From a virus (taxonomy: Duplodnaviria > Caudoviricetes), in IMG/VR virus record IMGVR_UViG_3300046171_000010, positions 1-58,923 of that record: a DNA stretch of 58,923 bases, one strand, 5' to 3'. The notes below the pieces were generated by a model. It had not been told where the DNA came from, ran no database searches, and saw only the letters and a list, made by a program, of their open reading frames with translations. Numbering within the stretch: position 1 is the first letter of the stretch; each line of letters begins with the position of its first letter. The position numbers and the translations under genes were made by a program. Of this stretch, positions 26,654 through 29,755 are shown one piece after another.

Positions 26654-26682
26654 AATATAGTAGTAGGTAGTTGTTTAATCAA
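26654..26682 (-). promoter_or_regulatory. Sigma70-type promoter for the SSB/primase block
   Basis: TTGATT-17 nt-TATATT on the - strand, 30 nt upstream of the start at 26624. Confidence 0.6.
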
Positions 26683-28216
26683 GTATTTCTTTGTAAAGAT
26701 CAATAATTTTTGTATGTGTGTCTATTTTGTTATCTAGTAGTGCGTACACACGTTTTTCTATGTGAGATCCTTGTAGCTGTACCACCGTACACTTGTGATC
26801 TTGCCCCGCTCTGTGAATACGTGCGTTGGCTTGAGCATATGTTTCTACCGAACTGGTTGGCCCCCACCACACGATTGTGTTTGCAGCAGTCAGCGTAACG
26901 CCGTGTGCCGCAGCCTGTGGCTGTATGACCAGCACTCGTGGGCTGTCAGTCTCTTGGAACTCTTTGAATATGCGCGTGCGTTCAGTCGCACTGACTGCGC
27001 CGCTGATGACCTCGGTGGGTATCTTGTCTTTGCGTAGCTTCTCGGAAAGTAGCTGTATTGTGTGTTTGAACGGCACGAAGATCAGGACTTTCTTGCTGGA
27101 CTCGTCAATCACCTCACGCAACACCTTGTATCGGTGCTTGATGTCGAACTCCACTACCTCTTTGTCGTCGGTATACACCGCCCCAGAACTGATTTGTAGC
27201 AGCTTGTTCATGTTTACCGCCGCCGTAGCTGCCGTGACTGTCTCTTCAGCAGCTTCCATGACCATGCGGTTCTTCAATTCTTTGTAGTATTTATCTTGCT
27301 GGCGGGTCAGCGGTACCTCGCGAGTTGTGTATATGATGTCAGGTAGATCAAGACACTCTTCCTTGGTGAACCGTATCGCTGGCTGTAAGGCACTGAACAC
27401 TGTCTCCGTGGCGTTGGGCTTAGGCACCCACTTGAAGTTAGTCACTTTGACCATGACCTGATCGCGGAACGAGCCAAAGAAGCGTGGCACAGCCTTCGGG
27501 TTAACGAGTTTAGCCAGCCCGTACGCATCCAACGGACTCTGTGCAGCAGGGGTACCCGTCATCATCCAGAGCCATTTGTCCGGCCCAAGTAGCCTGTTGA
27601 GTGTTTTCCAGCGGTCAGTTTGTGCGTTCTTGTAGTGAGTTGCCTCGTCCACAATCACTAGGTCAAACCCACCGTTGGCTATGGCGTCCGAGACGATTGC
27701 CACACCGTCATAATTTATTATGACAAACTCTGCATCGCCTTCGATTACAGCGGTTCTTTTCTTTGCTGAACCGTGGGCTATATCTACCTTGCGGTGCATG
27801 GCAAAGCTGAACAGATCCTCTCGCCACGCTGAATCCATAATAGATAAGGGGCAGATGACCAGAGCACGCTTGATACGGCCTTGCTTCATCAAGAAGTCTG
27901 CCGCCCAGATAGCACTGGCGGTCTTACCCGTACCCTGTTCGTTGAAGCAGAACGCACGTTTGTTGAGTGTCAGAAACCCAGATGTAGTCTTCTGGTGCTC
28001 AAATGGTTTGTACTTACCCGTCCACTGATACTGCCCTTCGATGGGTGACGGTGCATGGATGTCGAGATTCTTGAGTACATGAGCCTCGTCTACCCCCCAG
28101 TTAACCACCACACGGTTACCTGATAACTCCTTACTCTTTGGTATTACGTCGGTAACTTTTGCTGGATCACGTAGCCGCAGTAGAAGCGCCTTGTTGTCTA
28201 TGACTTTCACTTCCAC
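26675..28216 (-). CDS. SNF2-family (SF2) helicase
   Basis: EQGTGKT, VDEATH, MTGTP, AHGVTL and QANARIHRAGQ motifs. Confidence 0.9.
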   Translation of the reverse strand: MEVKVIDNKALLLRLRDPAKVTDVIPKSKELSGNRVVVNWGVDEAHVLKNLDIHAPSPIEGQYQWTGKYKPFEHQKTTSGFLTLNKRAFCFNEQGTGKTASAIWAADFLMKQGRIKRALVICPLSIMDSAWREDLFSFAMHRKVDIAHGSAKKRTAVIEGDAEFVIINYDGVAIVSDAIANGGFDLVIVDEATHYKNAQTDRWKTLNRLLGPDKWLWMMTGTPAAQSPLDAYGLAKLVNPKAVPRFFGSFRDQVMVKVTNFKWVPKPNATETVFSALQPAIRFTKEECLDLPDIIYTTREVPLTRQQDKYYKELKNRMVMEAAEETVTAATAAVNMNKLLQISSGAVYTDDKEVVEFDIKHRYKVLREVIDESSKKVLIFVPFKHTIQLLSEKLRKDKIPTEVISGAVSATERTRIFKEFQETDSPRVLVIQPQAAAHGVTLTAANTIVWWGPTSSVETYAQANARIHRAGQDHKCTVVQLQGSHIEKRVYALLDNKIDTHTKIIDLYKEILD

Positions 28217-28392
28217 AACTCCATAGACAGATCTATGCCATACTTTTTCAGTTTCTTTCTGGCCCTAGCGATGTCTATATCCGTAAGATCTTCAGGTTCT
28301 TTGTCGTATGATATAGCCACCAGCGCCACCTCATGGATATACTGGATAGCATCTTCTTCGTTTTCAAAATCGTCTTTGTGTTTGACTTTCAT
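28207..28392 (-). CDS. Hypothetical protein
   Basis: AAGGGTG SD; overlaps the helicase start. Confidence 0.6.
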   Translation of the reverse strand: MKVKHKDDFENEEDAIQYIHEVALVAISYDKEPEDLTDIDIARARKKLKKYGIDLSMELWK

Positions 28393-28409
28393 TTATCACC
28401 CTTCATGCA

Positions 28410-28705
28410 AAAAAGCGCGAAGTGGGTGTCCACTACACGCGGTTAAAAAATGGGGCAGGGCAACAGGGTTAGCCTGTTCCGAGCATCCGGCTGAGACCCC
28501 TTATCACTAAAGGGTCATACCCCGAAAAGCCCCGCCTTTTGGCGCACGGACGGGAACGTGCTGTTTCAGGGATGGAGTTCCCTTGCCAACTCCGCCTTTG
28601 GGCACGAGGACGGAAACTCGCAAGGAGGGAGTGTGTAGTCTCCCTGCCCAAAAAAGTCCCAGCTTCGACCACACGGCTGGGGCGTGCCAACAGGCAGGAA
28701 TGCCT
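28410..28705 (-). ncRNA. Candidate structured RNA: three hairpin + pseudoknot units, a multi-stem domain and a terminator-like hairpin
   Basis: Pairing was read by eye. It shows compensatory changes, G-U pairs that work only on the - strand, a GTGA (GNRA) loop and U-tracts after the structures. Confidence 0.65.
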
Positions 28706-28709
28706 CGGT

Positions 28710-28796
28710 CTAATACATCATCATCAAAGTGAGAAGAAAAGACAGTAGATAGATCGTCATAATTATACCTACGCCGATCAGTATGCCTGTCTTCAC
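28710..28796 (-). CDS. 28-aa hydrophobic peptide MKTGILIGVGIIMTIYLLSFLLTLMMMY, missing from the ORF track
   Basis: GTG start after AAGGATGAG, encoding a single TM-length hydrophobic stretch. Confidence 0.55.
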   Translation of the reverse strand: MKTGILIGVGIIMTIYLLSFLLTLMMMY

Positions 28797-28807
28797 CTCA
28801 TCCTTAC

Positions 28808-29084
28808 TCACCTACGTCTTGGTCTTTGTCCGTTACGGCTGCGGTTAGCACTCTTGCTCTCTATCCGCACGCCGTCTTTGTTGCTGCCACCCTTTACTCA
28901 GCATCTTGTTGTGACTGACATCCTTACCCTCACGCTTGTCAGCTTTGCCATTCTTGTTAGCATCGCGTCCAGCCTTATCCATAGCACGCCGTGCACGCTG
29001 CCGCTCCATCCTAGCTTCGTGTGCGGGACTGCCAACTGGCGGGTTCTTCTGCTTCTTACGATCCGCTTTGTTCTTGTACGGCAT
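28808..29084 (-). CDS. HNH-like small basic protein (apparent frameshift at 28890-28892)
   Basis: Removing one base gives KDVSHNKMLSKGGSNKDGVRIESKSANRSRN, an HNH-type pattern. Confidence 0.6.
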
Positions 29085-29755
29085 CAGTTCTTTCCGTTAT
29101 GTGGGCACTCCAACACAGGGCACCATGCTTTGCACAATCCACTGGGGTTGGGATTCCACGTATCGTTCTCAAAAGCTGTCTCCATGTCGCTGTACTTACC
29201 CAGCCACTTAGTCCACAACTTCTCCTCTTCCTTTATGGTGTAGCGATCTCGTATCAGATCATTACTTACCACAAACAATAGCCCAGCCCGAACAGTCTCC
29301 ACTTCGGGGTAGTGCTTAAAAGCCGCTAGAGCCATAAGTTCTAACTGGCCTTTATCAGCGTATCTTGCCGACTTTCCTGTCTTGTAGTCAATAACCCAAG
29401 CTAATTTTTCTTCATTATTTAGTATCAATAAGTCTGCGATACCACGAAACCACACGTCACGAGCAAAGAAGCTACATGCTTCTAGGTCTTCGGTCAGCCC
29501 CATCTTGATCTCGCATAGCTTCTCGCCTTTCTTGGCGTTCAGTGCATCTAACATACCCTGTGCGTAGCTGAACCGTGGGTCAAGTTCACCACCGTCGCGG
29601 ATGTATTCTTCCGCAGCTTCGTGAAAAGCTGTTCCATACAATGTAGCCTTAGACTCCTTGAACGGGTACTGCTTGAGCACCTTCTCATGGTAGAACTGCT
29701 TAGGGCATTGCTGGAATGCCTTAATCTTACTGAACGACCACGGCGCTACGCTCAT
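29084..29755 (-). CDS. PD-(D/E)xK exonuclease (Cas4/RecB-like)
   Basis: WSFSKIKAFQQCP, GIADL, IDYKTG, QLELMA and C-terminal CxxCPxxxC-like motifs. Confidence 0.85.
   Translation of the reverse strand: MSVAPWSFSKIKAFQQCPKQFYHEKVLKQYPFKESKATLYGTAFHEAAEEYIRDGGELDPRFSYAQGMLDALNAKKGEKLCEIKMGLTEDLEACSFFARDVWFRGIADLLILNNEEKLAWVIDYKTGKSARYADKGQLELMALAAFKHYPEVETVRAGLLFVVSNDLIRDRYTIKEEEKLWTKWLGKYSDMETAFENDTWNPNPSGLCKAWCPVLECPHNGKN

What the first reader, a model, noticed from the sequence alone, without database searches (positions are those of the whole stretch)
28531..28705. Non-coding array of three hairpin + H-type pseudoknot units, conserved in structure rather than sequence
Seen on the - strand (S1a-L1-S2a-S1b-L3-S2b). 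28687-28658 reads GCACG c CCCAGC CGTGT ggtcgaa GCTGGG. 28621-28591 reads GCGAG tt TCCGTC CTCGT gcccaaa GGCGGA. 28561-28531 reads GCACG tt CCCGTC CGTGC gccaaaa GGCGGG. All three have a 5-bp S1, a 6-bp S2, L1 of 1-2 nt, L2 of 0 and L3 of 7 nt, and the substitutions are compensatory or G-U. Each is preceded 4-6 nt earlier by a hairpin (AGGCA/TGCCT, AGGGAG/CTCCCT, AGGGA/TCCCT), and the period is 60-67 nt. Established: type III toxin-antitoxin antitoxins (ToxI) are tandem H-type pseudoknots, phage phiTE uses pseudo-ToxI repeats against ToxIN, and T-even gene 32 mRNA uses a similar pseudoknot for autoregulation. Inference: this is a phage RNA decoy array, possibly anti-defence, or a protein-binding or nuclease-blocking element. 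I see no cognate toxin nuclease in the window.
Basis: partly seen in the sequence, partly recalled or inferred. Interest (0 to 1): 0.9.

Follow-up and report, generated by a model that had tools for sequence, protein, structure and literature searches.

The report
Tandem pseudoknotted RNA modules in phage
A marine phage carries three tandem copies of a small, intricately folded RNA (three helices plus a pseudoknot) that recurs in more than a hundred viral contigs and matches no described RNA family, so it is probably a new functional RNA whose job is still open.

Summary
Window 28528-28710 (- strand) holds three 56-62-nt units, each a hairpin followed by an H-type pseudoknot. The first 4-5 nt of his "L3" pair with the 4-5 nt just 5' of the hairpin. 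Each unit is therefore a three-way junction (P1, P2, P3) whose P3 loop pairs over 6 bp with the 3' tail.

Covariation supports this in 119 distinct units from viral contigs: 97.9% of cells are paired and 13 of 15 pairs change on both sides, against 36-47% paired in slid controls. Units occur only on the gene-coding strand, in 1-4 copies, at one locus per complete phage genome. A strict core pattern hit a single, phage-like contig among 185,579 species genomes.

Rfam, tRNA and tandem-repeat searches found nothing, and the genome has no ToxN or reverse transcriptase. A ToxI-type antitoxin is therefore not supported.

Function is unproven. My leading guess (about 0.3) is a cis-acting roadblock that stabilises the RNA, with an xrRNA-like topology. 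A host-factor sponge or decoy and RNA-mediated antitermination are close rivals.

The parts
28655..28710 (-). Unit 1. P1 is 28710-28707 (GACC) with 28670-28667 (GGTC). P2 is the hairpin 28705-28692. The linker GAA is 28666-28664 and the 3' ACT is 28657-28655, followed by a T6 run.
   Evidence: Sequence. R1 match of 36.7 bits. P1, P3 and pseudoknot covariation. The G of the peptide ORF's TAG stop (28710) is the first base of P1.
28588..28649 (-). Unit 2. P1 is 28649-28646 (GGGC) with 28603-28600 (GCCC). P2 is 28645-28626. P3 is 28621-28617 with 28608-28604. The pseudoknot is 28614-28609 (TCCGTC) with 28596-28591 (GGCGGA). The linker is AAA.
   Evidence: Sequence. R1 match of 40.7 bits. R2 match of 59.8 bits, E 2.8e-15.
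28528..28589 (-). Unit 3. P1 is 28589-28585 (TTGGC) with 28543-28539 (GCCAA). P2 is 28583-28568. P3 is 28561-28557 with 28548-28544. The pseudoknot is 28554-28549 (CCCGTC) with 28536-28531 (GGCGGG).
   Evidence: Sequence. R1 match of 43 bits. R2 does not list it, probably because its modelled flanks overlap the higher-scoring unit 2 (my inference).
28710..28811 (-). Associated gene: a 33-aa single-pass membrane peptide ORF whose stop codon abuts unit 1.
   Evidence: ORF. Homologues lie directly beside the array, upstream or downstream on the same strand, in 30 of 124 array loci, plus 6 more found. No Pfam family. The PHROG hit is only E 0.12.
28445..28524 (-). Neighbouring 'element B': a predicted four-way junction (outer stem plus three hairpins) followed by a T6 run. 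Whether it belongs functionally to the array is unknown.
   Evidence: RNAalifold on 7 sequences gives 26 pairs, 6 of them with compensatory changes. It occurs without pseudoknot units in L020-L024.
28409..28440 (-). Terminator-like hairpin (28440-28415) plus T6 run (28414-28409), 10-20 nt before the SD and ATG of the next ORF (28392).
   Evidence: The same or a covarying hairpin follows the array in many helicase-type loci, such as L004, L008 and L039.

Best explanation
Each unit is a self-contained structured RNA module of about 56-70 nt. It is transcribed as part of the long leftward replication-gene transcript. Its fold is a three-way junction (P1 of 4-5 bp, a variable P2 hairpin, P3 of 5-6 bp), and the P3 loop (consensus CCCGUC) forms a 6-bp pseudoknot with the tail just 3' of P1 (GGCGGG) across a conserved GAA linker. 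This part is shown; my confidence is about 0.9.

The mechanism is inferred. The compact, knotted fold acts in cis and without a dedicated phage protein as a mechanical roadblock to processive RNA decay. That decay could be 5'->3' by an RNase J-type enzyme, 3'->5' by PNPase or RNase R-type enzymes, or both. The array would then stabilise or partition the flanking cistrons and may leave stable unit-length RNAs, with extra copies adding robustness. The stated confidence applies to this mechanism.
For: - Fold: 97.9% of 1741 cells are paired in 119 distinct units and 13 of 15 pairs change on both sides. No shuffle out of 500 reaches this, and slid controls give 36-47%. A MAFFT alignment of 25 units gives 99.2%.
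- P1 independently of any alignment: 117 of 131 units carry the exact complement of their own P1 3' strand upstream, against 43 +/- 5 (maximum 60) in 2000 permutations.
- P2: 98 of 112 distinct units fold into a hairpin of at least 4 bp, median z -2.5.
- RNA strand: the conserved U.G (103 of 119) and G.U (74 of 119) pairs would be C.A mismatches on the other strand. All 60 matches in the helicase loci lie on the coding strand.
- Topology: P1 enclosing P2 and P3, a P3-loop to 3'-of-P1 pseudoknot of 6 bp, and tandem copies all match flavivirus class 1 xrRNAs. There this pseudoknot (PK2) is 2-7 bp, long PK2 makes the fold robust, and the RNAs also stop bacterial RNase J1 (passages read in PMC8374639, and PMC8571300).
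- Independence of neighbours: the module sits at different gene junctions in at least two unrelated replication modules, and no protein family is common to all loci. That fits a portable, protein-independent element.
- First units begin at the upstream stop codon, and last units end 8-20 nt before the next SD or before a terminator hairpin. The array is therefore intercistronic RNA.
Against: - No RNA ends or decay intermediates were seen. The only expression data are low-depth contigs from RNA libraries, which may contain DNA.
- There is one array per complete genome, and one complete relative has none. A general stabiliser would be expected at several junctions.
- The pseudoknot helix, the UU loop, GAA and the 3' RCU are almost invariant in sequence. 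That could equally mark a specific binding surface or a catalytic core.
- The second xrRNA pseudoknot (5' end with the junction) shows no covariation: observed pairing equals expectation.
- The host and its exonucleases are unknown.
- No phage or bacterial xrRNA was found in the searchable literature.
Confidence: 0.3

Rival explanations
1. Sponge or decoy for a conserved host factor, such as a defence nuclease, RNA chaperone, RNase or ribosome-associated protein. The repeated, sequence-invariant pseudoknot core would be the binding site, and copy number would set the titration capacity.
For: - The core (CCCGUC/GGCGGG, UU, GAA, RCU) is near-invariant while P1 and P3 covary freely.
- Arrays have 1-4 units, with gain and loss between close relatives.
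- The locus is a single accessory one in a hypervariable island. Close relatives differ by inserted ORFs, and a complete relative lacks the array.
- The same core is shared by unrelated phage lineages.
Against: No partner is known. No cellular RNA with the same core was found that it could mimic. No promoter or high expression is shown. The elaborate P1 and P2 scaffold is not needed for a simple binding site.
Confidence: 0.22
2. Cis-acting processive antiterminator RNA, working like HK022 put or the Bacillus EAR element (both recalled). The nascent module would modify host RNA polymerase so that it reads through the terminator-like hairpins between the array and the helicase and downstream replication genes.
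For: - In the window three structures carrying T6 runs (unit 1, element B and the 28440-28409 hairpin) stand between the upstream genes and the helicase block, with only 10-20 nt left before the SD. Downstream genes must therefore be reached by read-through.
- A terminator-like hairpin follows the array in many helicase-type loci.
- There is a single locus in the middle of a 20-kb co-oriented gene block.
- An invariant core fits a conserved target such as RNA polymerase.
Against: In the DUF669-type loci the array runs straight into the SD and start of the next gene with no nearby terminator. Tandem copies are not known for put or EAR (recalled). No experiment supports it, and the hairpins may simply be weak attenuators.
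Confidence: 0.13
3. Self-cleaving or otherwise catalytic RNA that cuts the polycistronic transcript into unit-length pieces.
For: The motif is small and pseudoknotted, with about 15 near-invariant nucleotides. It occurs in tandem copies in phage intergenic DNA, the kind of setting in which several ribozyme classes were found (recalled).
Against: No Rfam ribozyme model matches even at E<=10. No conserved candidate cleavage dinucleotide stands out. The helix order differs from HDV-like, pistol, twister and hammerhead folds (my comparison, recalled).
Confidence: 0.08
4. Regulatory partner of the adjacent small membrane peptide. The array would sit in the peptide mRNA's 3' or 5' UTR and control its translation or stability, forming a toxin-like peptide plus RNA module.
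For: A conserved 29-33-aa single-pass peptide gene lies at most 130 nt from the array in 30 of 124 array loci, on either side and on the same strand. All 30 peptide genes found in those loci are next to an array.
Against: Most arrays (94 of 124 loci, some of them truncated) have no such gene nearby. Six peptide genes (L017-L022) are followed by a different structured stretch. Toxicity of the peptide is unknown, and it has no family.
Confidence: 0.07
5. Translational operator bound by a phage replication protein, an autoregulation of the gene 32 or gene 43 kind.
For: The array lies inside replication and recombination modules, directly after a DUF669 SSB-like gene in one lineage. In several loci the last unit ends 8-12 nt before an SD.
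Against: No protein family co-occurs with all arrays. In the window about 135 nt of other structure separate the array from the next SD. The neighbouring genes differ between lineages.
Confidence: 0.05
6. Type III antitoxin (ToxI-like) or pseudo-ToxI decoy.
For: The locus has an array of pseudoknots followed by a terminator-like hairpin and then an ORF. This resembles the type III locus plan read in PMC3401426.
Against: TRF finds no repeat. There is no ToxN family gene in the genome. The ORF after the terminator is not constant. Units are 56-70 nt three-way junctions, not 31-62-nt near-identical repeats. No cellular counterpart of the core was found.
Confidence: 0.03

Closest known systems
Flavivirus class 1 exoribonuclease-resistant RNAs (xrRNA1/xrRNA2)
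   Same: Both have a three-way junction in which P1 encloses the P2 and P3 hairpins. In both, the P3 apical loop forms a pseudoknot with the sequence just 3' of P1 (PK2, 2-7 bp there, 6 bp here). Both occur as tandem copies in untranslated viral RNA.
   Different: No Rfam xrRNA model matches. No PK1 covariation and no invariant J2/3 cytosine were seen. Here P3 and the pseudoknot form a classical H-type knot with no intervening loop. The virus is a DNA phage, its host has no Xrn1, and function is untested.
ToxI / CptI / TenpI antitoxin arrays of type III toxin-antitoxin systems
   Same: Both are tandem pseudoknotted RNA units followed by a terminator-like hairpin and an ORF.
   Different: The units here are diverged (TRF finds none), larger, and built on a three-way junction. 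There is no ToxN-family toxin, the downstream ORF varies, and the element is carried by phages only.
UG27 reverse-transcriptase-associated ncRNA arrays of phages (bioRxiv 10.64898/2026.09.22.753630)
   Same: Both are phage-encoded arrays of units that are diverse in sequence but conserved in structure. Both have a pseudoknot and show gain or loss of single units between relatives.
   Different: Those units are about 135-167 nt and sit beside an RT and two accessory genes. Here units are 56-70 nt, and no RT is found in the genome at E<=1.
T-even gene 32 mRNA pseudoknot (recalled; mentioned in PMC10690425)
   Same: Similar H-type geometry: a 5-6-bp stem 1, a 6-7-bp stem 2 and a 1-2-nt loop 1.
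   Different: The element here is not in the leader of an SSB gene. It is repeated and embedded in a three-way junction, and most of 'loop 3' is paired.
Processive antiterminator RNAs: HK022 put and Bacillus EAR (recalled)
   Same: Both are cis-acting structured RNAs inside long operons, upstream of intrinsic terminators, with a conserved core.
   Different: There is no sequence or Rfam relation. Tandem copies are unknown for those elements. Terminators are not adjacent in all loci.

Membership tests
Type III TA antitoxin (ToxI/CptI/TenpI) | Tandem array of near-identical direct repeats (31-62 nt) detectable with Tandem Repeats Finder | tested here: not met
   TRF returns 0 rows at minimum score 30 on 28300-28900. 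The criterion was read in PMC3401426.
Type III TA antitoxin (ToxI/CptI/TenpI) | Array followed by a palindromic terminator and then an endoribonuclease toxin gene (ToxN/CptN/TenpN) | tested here: not met
   A terminator-like hairpin is present. However, PF13958 finds nothing in the genome at E<=1, the neighbours have no such Pfam domain, and the downstream ORF differs between relatives. CptN and TenpN profiles were not searched separately.
Type III TA antitoxin (ToxI/CptI/TenpI) | Each repeat folds as a pseudoknot | tested here: met
   P3 and the pseudoknot are supported by covariation.
Type III TA antitoxin (ToxI/CptI/TenpI) | Repeats are cut out by, and inhibit, the cognate toxin | not testable with these tools
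   Needs biochemistry, and no toxin candidate exists.
Flavivirus class 1 xrRNA | Three-way junction of P1, P2 and P3 | tested here: met
   P1 and P3 covary. A P2 hairpin is present in 98 of 112 units.
Flavivirus class 1 xrRNA | PK2: the P3 loop pairs with the sequence 3' of P1 | tested here: met
   A 6-bp helix, 98.7% of cells paired, with 4 pairs changed on both sides. The definition was read.
Flavivirus class 1 xrRNA | PK1 (5' end with the junction, 1-2 bp), conserved J2/3 cytosine, and a base triple | tested here: inconclusive
   Pairing between the 4 nt 5' of P1 and J2/3 equals expectation, and no invariant C is seen in J2/3. A 1-2-bp contact is hard to detect, and J2/3 is poorly aligned.
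Flavivirus class 1 xrRNA | Match to the family's covariance models | tested here: not met
   No xrRNA model matches the - strand at E<=10. The only hit is an insignificant one (E 2.3) on the + strand at 28449-28517.
Flavivirus class 1 xrRNA | Halts a 5'->3' exoribonuclease just 5' of the fold | not testable with these tools
   Needs an enzymatic assay or end-mapping. Contigs cannot show RNA ends.
UG27 RT-associated ncRNA array | Adjacent UG27 reverse transcriptase with two accessory genes | tested here: not met
   PF00078 finds nothing in the genome at E<=1. The definition was read.
T-even gene 32 translational operator | Pseudoknot in the 5' leader of the SSB gene it regulates | tested here: not met
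   The next genes are a 61-aa ORF and an SNF2 helicase. The T7-like SSB gene is about 3 kb further on.
Any Rfam 15 family / tRNA | Score at or above the gathering threshold; ARAGORN call | tested here: not met
   The only gathering-level hit in the window is Mu-gpT-DE at 50866-50918. The region scan at E<=10 gives only insignificant hits. There are 0 tRNAs in the window and in 60 array loci.
Intrinsic terminator | GC-rich stem directly followed by a U-tract | tested here: not met
   A T-run of at least 4 within 10 nt after the unit occurs in only 35 of 134 distinct units. It is true of unit 1 of the window.

The most novel reading that the evidence does not exclude
These modules are the first xrRNA-type mechanical roadblocks found outside eukaryotic RNA viruses. 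On this reading a DNA phage uses a knotted three-way-junction RNA, in tandem, to stop bacterial exoribonucleases and so shape the decay of its replication-gene transcript or make stable small RNAs. A still bolder variant that the data do not exclude is that the array and the adjacent 33-aa membrane peptide form a new kind of RNA-peptide module.
Probability: 0.13. Interest if true: 0.9.

Novelty: new variant of a known kind. Interest (0 to 1): 0.68.

Why it matters
If the fold is confirmed, this is a compact new RNA architecture with unusually clean covariation. It is a three-way junction locked by a 6-bp pseudoknot, and it is abundant in uncultured marine phages yet absent from Rfam.

Its topology is the one flaviviruses use to stop exonucleases. 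A bacterial or phage counterpart would show that mechanical RNA roadblocks are not confined to eukaryotic RNA viruses, and it would provide a small portable RNA-stabilising part.

If it is instead a sponge or an antiterminator, it would add a new RNA-only way for phages to handle a conserved host machine. In either case the single accessory locus, the variable copy number and the link to a tiny membrane peptide give concrete, cheap experiments.

Tried and rejected
1. Known families. Rfam at gathering level and at E<=10 gave nothing relevant. ARAGORN found 0 tRNAs in the window and in 60 loci. blastn against 50,697 phage records gave no match. The nearest cultured phages share only about 41% helicase identity.

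2. Tandem-repeat view. TRF returns 0 rows.

3. Terminator view. A U-tract follows only 35 of 134 units. The simple scan calls no - strand terminator in 28000-29300 because the loops exceed its limit.

4. Promoter for an independent sRNA gene. No convincing sigma-70 site lies upstream. A TATAAT at 28767-28762 lies inside the peptide ORF and has no -35 element (my reading). First units abut coding sequence.

5. xrRNA PK1. No covariation between the 5' flank and J2/3.

6. Constant protein partner. Clustering 3821 ORFs within 3.5 kb of 124 arrays gave none. The largest families reach 51 and 47 loci.

7. Replication origin. Cumulative GC skew follows gene orientation and has no turn at 28.5 kb.

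8. rRNA mimicry lead. In E. coli rrsH, CCCGTC occurs once (1402-1407) and GAAGTCGTAAC at 1491-1501 resembles GAA+GGCGGG+AC. However, a second, equally good 9-mer match (CGAAGGCGG, at about 726-734) lies elsewhere in the same rRNA. Such matches therefore arise easily, and I give the lead under 0.03.

9. RNA evidence. Four RNA-library runs hold only short contigs. X17 covers 28638-28814 and X20 covers 28399-28552, at depth 2-6, and DNA carry-over is not excluded. Uncovered parts allow no inference.

Earlier findings of this scan returned nothing.

11. CRISPR-repeat mimicry was considered only by eye. No Rfam CRISPR-DR family hit at E<=10.
Full report
WHAT IS THERE. It holds three units, each a short hairpin followed 4-6 nt later by S1a-L1-S2a-S1b-L3-S2b, with a 5-bp S1, a 6-bp S2, an L1 of 1-2 nt and no L2. 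MAFFT aligns the three pseudoknot cores with one gap and 82% mean column identity (A1). The array fills the first 183 nt of a 317-nt gap between a 33-aa ORF (28710-28811) and a 61-aa ORF (28207-28392) that overlaps the start of an SNF2 helicase gene (26675-28216). DNA polymerase A and a PD-(D/E)XK nuclease lie upstream, and a Mu Gam-like and a T7-type SSB gene lie downstream, all on the - strand. The window is a whole IMG/VR virus record, about 94% complete.

NOT CHANCE. The helicase protein retrieved 80 related viral loci at 73-100% identity. A covariance model built from the three cores alone, with only S2 given as structure (R1), found 60 matches at E<=1 in 31 of the 81 sources searched. 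Every match lies on the helicase-coding strand and upstream of the helicase, with 1-4 per locus. R1 then found 140 matches at E<=0.1 in 100 of those loci; L182-L200 were not searched. The same pattern also hit 120 stretches of cellular genomes, and these serve as a chance control. S1, which neither the pattern nor the model constrains, is fully paired in 125 of 135 viral matches and 19 of 19 helicase-locus matches, but in only 5 of 120 genome matches. A stricter 23-base core pattern occurs once in 185,579 species-representative genomes. That contig, from a MAG, is at least 95% identical to viral contigs of this set. The element is therefore phage-specific as far as these collections show.

THE FOLD IS BIGGER THAN REPORTED. 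The pairs seen are GACC/GGTC, GGTC/GACC, GGCC/GGCC, GGGC/GCCC, TGGC/GCCA, GATC/GATC, GTAC/GTAC, GGAC/GTCC, GGGT/ACCC, GGCT/AGCC, GACT/AGTC, and a 6-bp TTAGTC/GACTAA.

An alignment-free test confirms this helix. In 117 of 131 units the exact Watson-Crick complement of the unit's own 3' strand occurs 8-70 nt upstream, against 43.1 +/- 5.0 (maximum 60) when the 3' strands are permuted among units 2000 times.

On a MAFFT alignment of 25 units, the three helices give 99.2% paired cells and 11 of 15 pairs with changes on both sides. Slid controls give 36-45%. I chose those units knowing P1, so P1 is favoured by selection in that alignment. A second model with only P1 and P3 as structure (R2) was run on 88 of the roughly 200 sources and aligned 130 matches, 119 of them distinct. 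On that alignment 97.9% of 1741 cells pair, compared with 84.7% after shuffling, and no shuffle out of 500 reaches the observed value. Thirteen of 15 pairs and 206 cells change on both sides, and slid controls give 36-47%. The pseudoknot was not in that model, yet it is 98.7% paired. The alignment is fitted to P1 and P3, so those two lean towards the structure, and one search is the independent check for P1.

The top seven pairs by corrected mutual information are six of the P1 and P3 pairs, with one pair of neighbouring 3'-flank columns among them. The stretch between P1 and P3 folds into a hairpin of at least 4 bp in 98 of 112 distinct units, with a median z of -2.5 against shuffles.

Each unit is thus 5'-A-P1-A-[P2 hairpin]-J-P3-UU-[CCCGUC]-P3'-P1'-GAA-[GGCGGG]-RCU. 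That is a three-way junction whose P3 loop is knotted to the tail just 3' of P1.

RNA, NOT PROTEIN OR DUPLEX DNA. The conserved U.G pair in the pseudoknot (103 of 119) and the G.U pair closing P3 (74 of 119, replaced by A-U in 27) would be C.A mismatches on the other strand. Relatives that are 94% identical differ by 1-nt indels inside units, for example GCACGCCCCAGC versus GCACGCCCCCAGC and CATTCC versus CATTTCC. Unit lengths and copy numbers vary. TRF sees no repeat. Of 124 arrays, 110 have a same-strand ORF ending at most 110 nt upstream or starting at most 100 nt downstream. ORFs of more than 80 aa spanning the array occur in 14 (same strand) and 17 (opposite strand), and I regard these as spurious.

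WHERE IT SITS. There are two main contexts.
- Context A (51 loci): polymerase A, PD-(D/E)XK nuclease, a basic 106-aa protein (phrog_4590), then often a 29-33-aa membrane peptide, then the array, often a terminator-like hairpin, and finally the helicase.
- Context B (23 loci): a Sak4-like ATPase (my reading of its sequence), a DUF669 SSB-like protein, then the array, then an unknown protein.

Other upstream or downstream neighbours include HNH endonuclease, an HTH protein and a DUF3799 exonuclease. No protein family is common to all arrays. First units start at the upstream stop codon. Last units end 8-20 nt before an SD or before a hairpin with a T-run. In four complete or nearly complete genomes the model finds one array in each of three (plus one weak hit in a fourth), and none in a 100%-complete helicase relative. 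The window has only this one array. Close relatives differ in unit number and in inserted ORFs at this spot. It is thus a single, accessory, hypervariable locus.

KNOWN FAMILIES.
- Rfam and tRNA: there is no Rfam family and no tRNA.
- Type III toxin-antitoxin loci: these are defined by TRF-detectable repeats, a terminator and a toxin gene (passages of PMC3401426). Here TRF fails, no ToxN family gene exists in the genome, and the ORF after the hairpin varies.
- UG27 arrays of phage ncRNAs: these share the 'diverse sequence, conserved structure, unit gain and loss' behaviour, but they sit beside a reverse transcriptase and have units of about 150 nt (section 9 of the preprint). No RT is present here.
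- Flavivirus class 1 xrRNAs: these are the closest topology. They have a three-way junction, a P3-loop pseudoknot with the sequence 3' of P1 (PK2, 2-7 bp) and tandem copies, and they also block bacterial RNase J1 (passages of PMC8374639 and PMC8571300). Their second pseudoknot and conserved J2/3 cytosine are not detectable here, and no xrRNA model matches. The phage element works like nothing proven and is a member of no described family.
- The IMG/VR screen: a 2023 screen of IMG/VR intergenic regions lists 8,495 unnamed candidates (passages of PMC10690425).
- Literature searches: full-text searches for phage or bacterial xrRNAs and for tandem pseudoknots in phages found nothing relevant.

EXPRESSION. 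Twenty of the 24 listed runs hold part of the stretch, and four of them are on record as RNA with small shares. When laid, an oligo-dT library contig covers 28638-28814 and runs on into a variant unit 2. Another covers 28399-28552 and runs on into the 413-aa ORF that some relatives carry after the hairpin. Depth is 2-6, DNA carry-over cannot be excluded, and contigs show no ends. This is compatible with transcription through the array and proves nothing more.

HOW IT MOST LIKELY WORKS. The following are shown: a strand-specific, knotted, modular RNA fold; tandem copies; an intercistronic position; one accessory locus per genome; independence from any one neighbouring gene; and an almost invariant pseudoknot core. 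The rest is inference.

I rank first (0.3) a protein-independent roadblock to processive RNA decay. That is what this topology does elsewhere, it explains portability between unrelated modules, and extra copies would add robustness. Against it stand the single locus per genome, the sequence-level invariance of the core and the lack of end data.

A sponge or decoy for a conserved host factor (0.22) explains the invariant core, the copy-number variation and the accessory, hypervariable setting, but it has no known partner. Put/EAR-like antitermination (0.13) explains why three structures bearing T-runs stand directly before the helicase block with no room for a promoter, but not the loci without terminators. 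The remaining readings are a ribozyme (0.08), regulation of the neighbouring membrane peptide (0.07), a replication-protein operator (0.05) and a ToxI-like antitoxin (0.03).

VERDICT. The ToxI and gene 32 analogies are not supported, and the broader 'nuclease-blocking or protein-binding' guess is still open. This is a well-supported new structured-RNA family of marine phages with an xrRNA-like topology and unknown function.

Noticed in passing
window 28710-28811 (-), and loci L002-L015, L032-L045, L088, L096, L097, L105, L132, L138, L145, L163, L178: A conserved 29-33-aa single-pass membrane peptide gene lies directly beside the RNA array on the same strand. It is upstream in the helicase-type phages and 17-21 nt downstream in other lineages. 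It was found in 30 of 124 array loci, and all 30 copies are at most 130 nt from an array. It has no Pfam or PHROG family.
   Followed up: partly
window 28445-28524 (-): A second structured element lies right after the array. It is predicted to be a four-way junction (7-bp outer stem and three hairpins) followed by a T6 run, with compensatory changes in 6 of 26 pairs over 7 sequences. It is present without pseudoknot units in L020-L024. No Rfam match.
   Followed up: partly
window 28207-28392 (-): The 61-aa ORF looks like an insertion that re-uses the helicase gene's SD, ATG and first three codons (compare L004 and L008, where the helicase starts there). Contigs of run X15 join 28209 to 28399/28404 and so lack it.
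   Followed up: partly
window 28808-29084 (-), about 28890-28893: The basic 106-aa protein gene (phrog_4590 in relatives) is split by a frameshift at a G-run in this record. Contigs from two other runs lack one base there, so this may be an assembly or sequencing error, or a strain variant.
   Followed up: no
window 50866-50918 (+): Rfam Mu-gpT-DE RNA, 70.4 bits (gathering threshold 49). It is the only gathering-level Rfam hit in the window.
   Followed up: no
L002, L005, L006, L015 (after the terminator hairpin); L090, L177 (after the array): A 389-413-aa ORF with no Pfam family is inserted right after the array and hairpin, in both phage lineages. The shared N-terminal motif is '...QKPY(L/V)R...G'.
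   Followed up: no
L017-L022, L038, L041, L045 downstream of the peptide gene or unit: Another recurring structured stretch, with a hairpin of the GTCGGGTGAGTG.TGGC.TCCGAC type followed by an AAAGAAAGGGTG SD region, replaces or follows the units.
   Followed up: no
units, consensus core; L321 (E. coli rrsH) 1402-1407 and 1491-1501: The invariant CCCGUC ... GAA-GGCGGG-AC resembles the two strands at the top of 16S helix 44 (CCCGTC and GAAGTCGTAAC in the tool-given rrsH). A second 9-mer match elsewhere in rrsH shows that such matches are easy to get, so I treat this as a weak lead only.
   Followed up: partly
L124 and L167, about 10-80 nt after the array: This stretch contains a T-arm-like GGTTCGAACCC hairpin, but ARAGORN calls no tRNA there.
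   Followed up: partly
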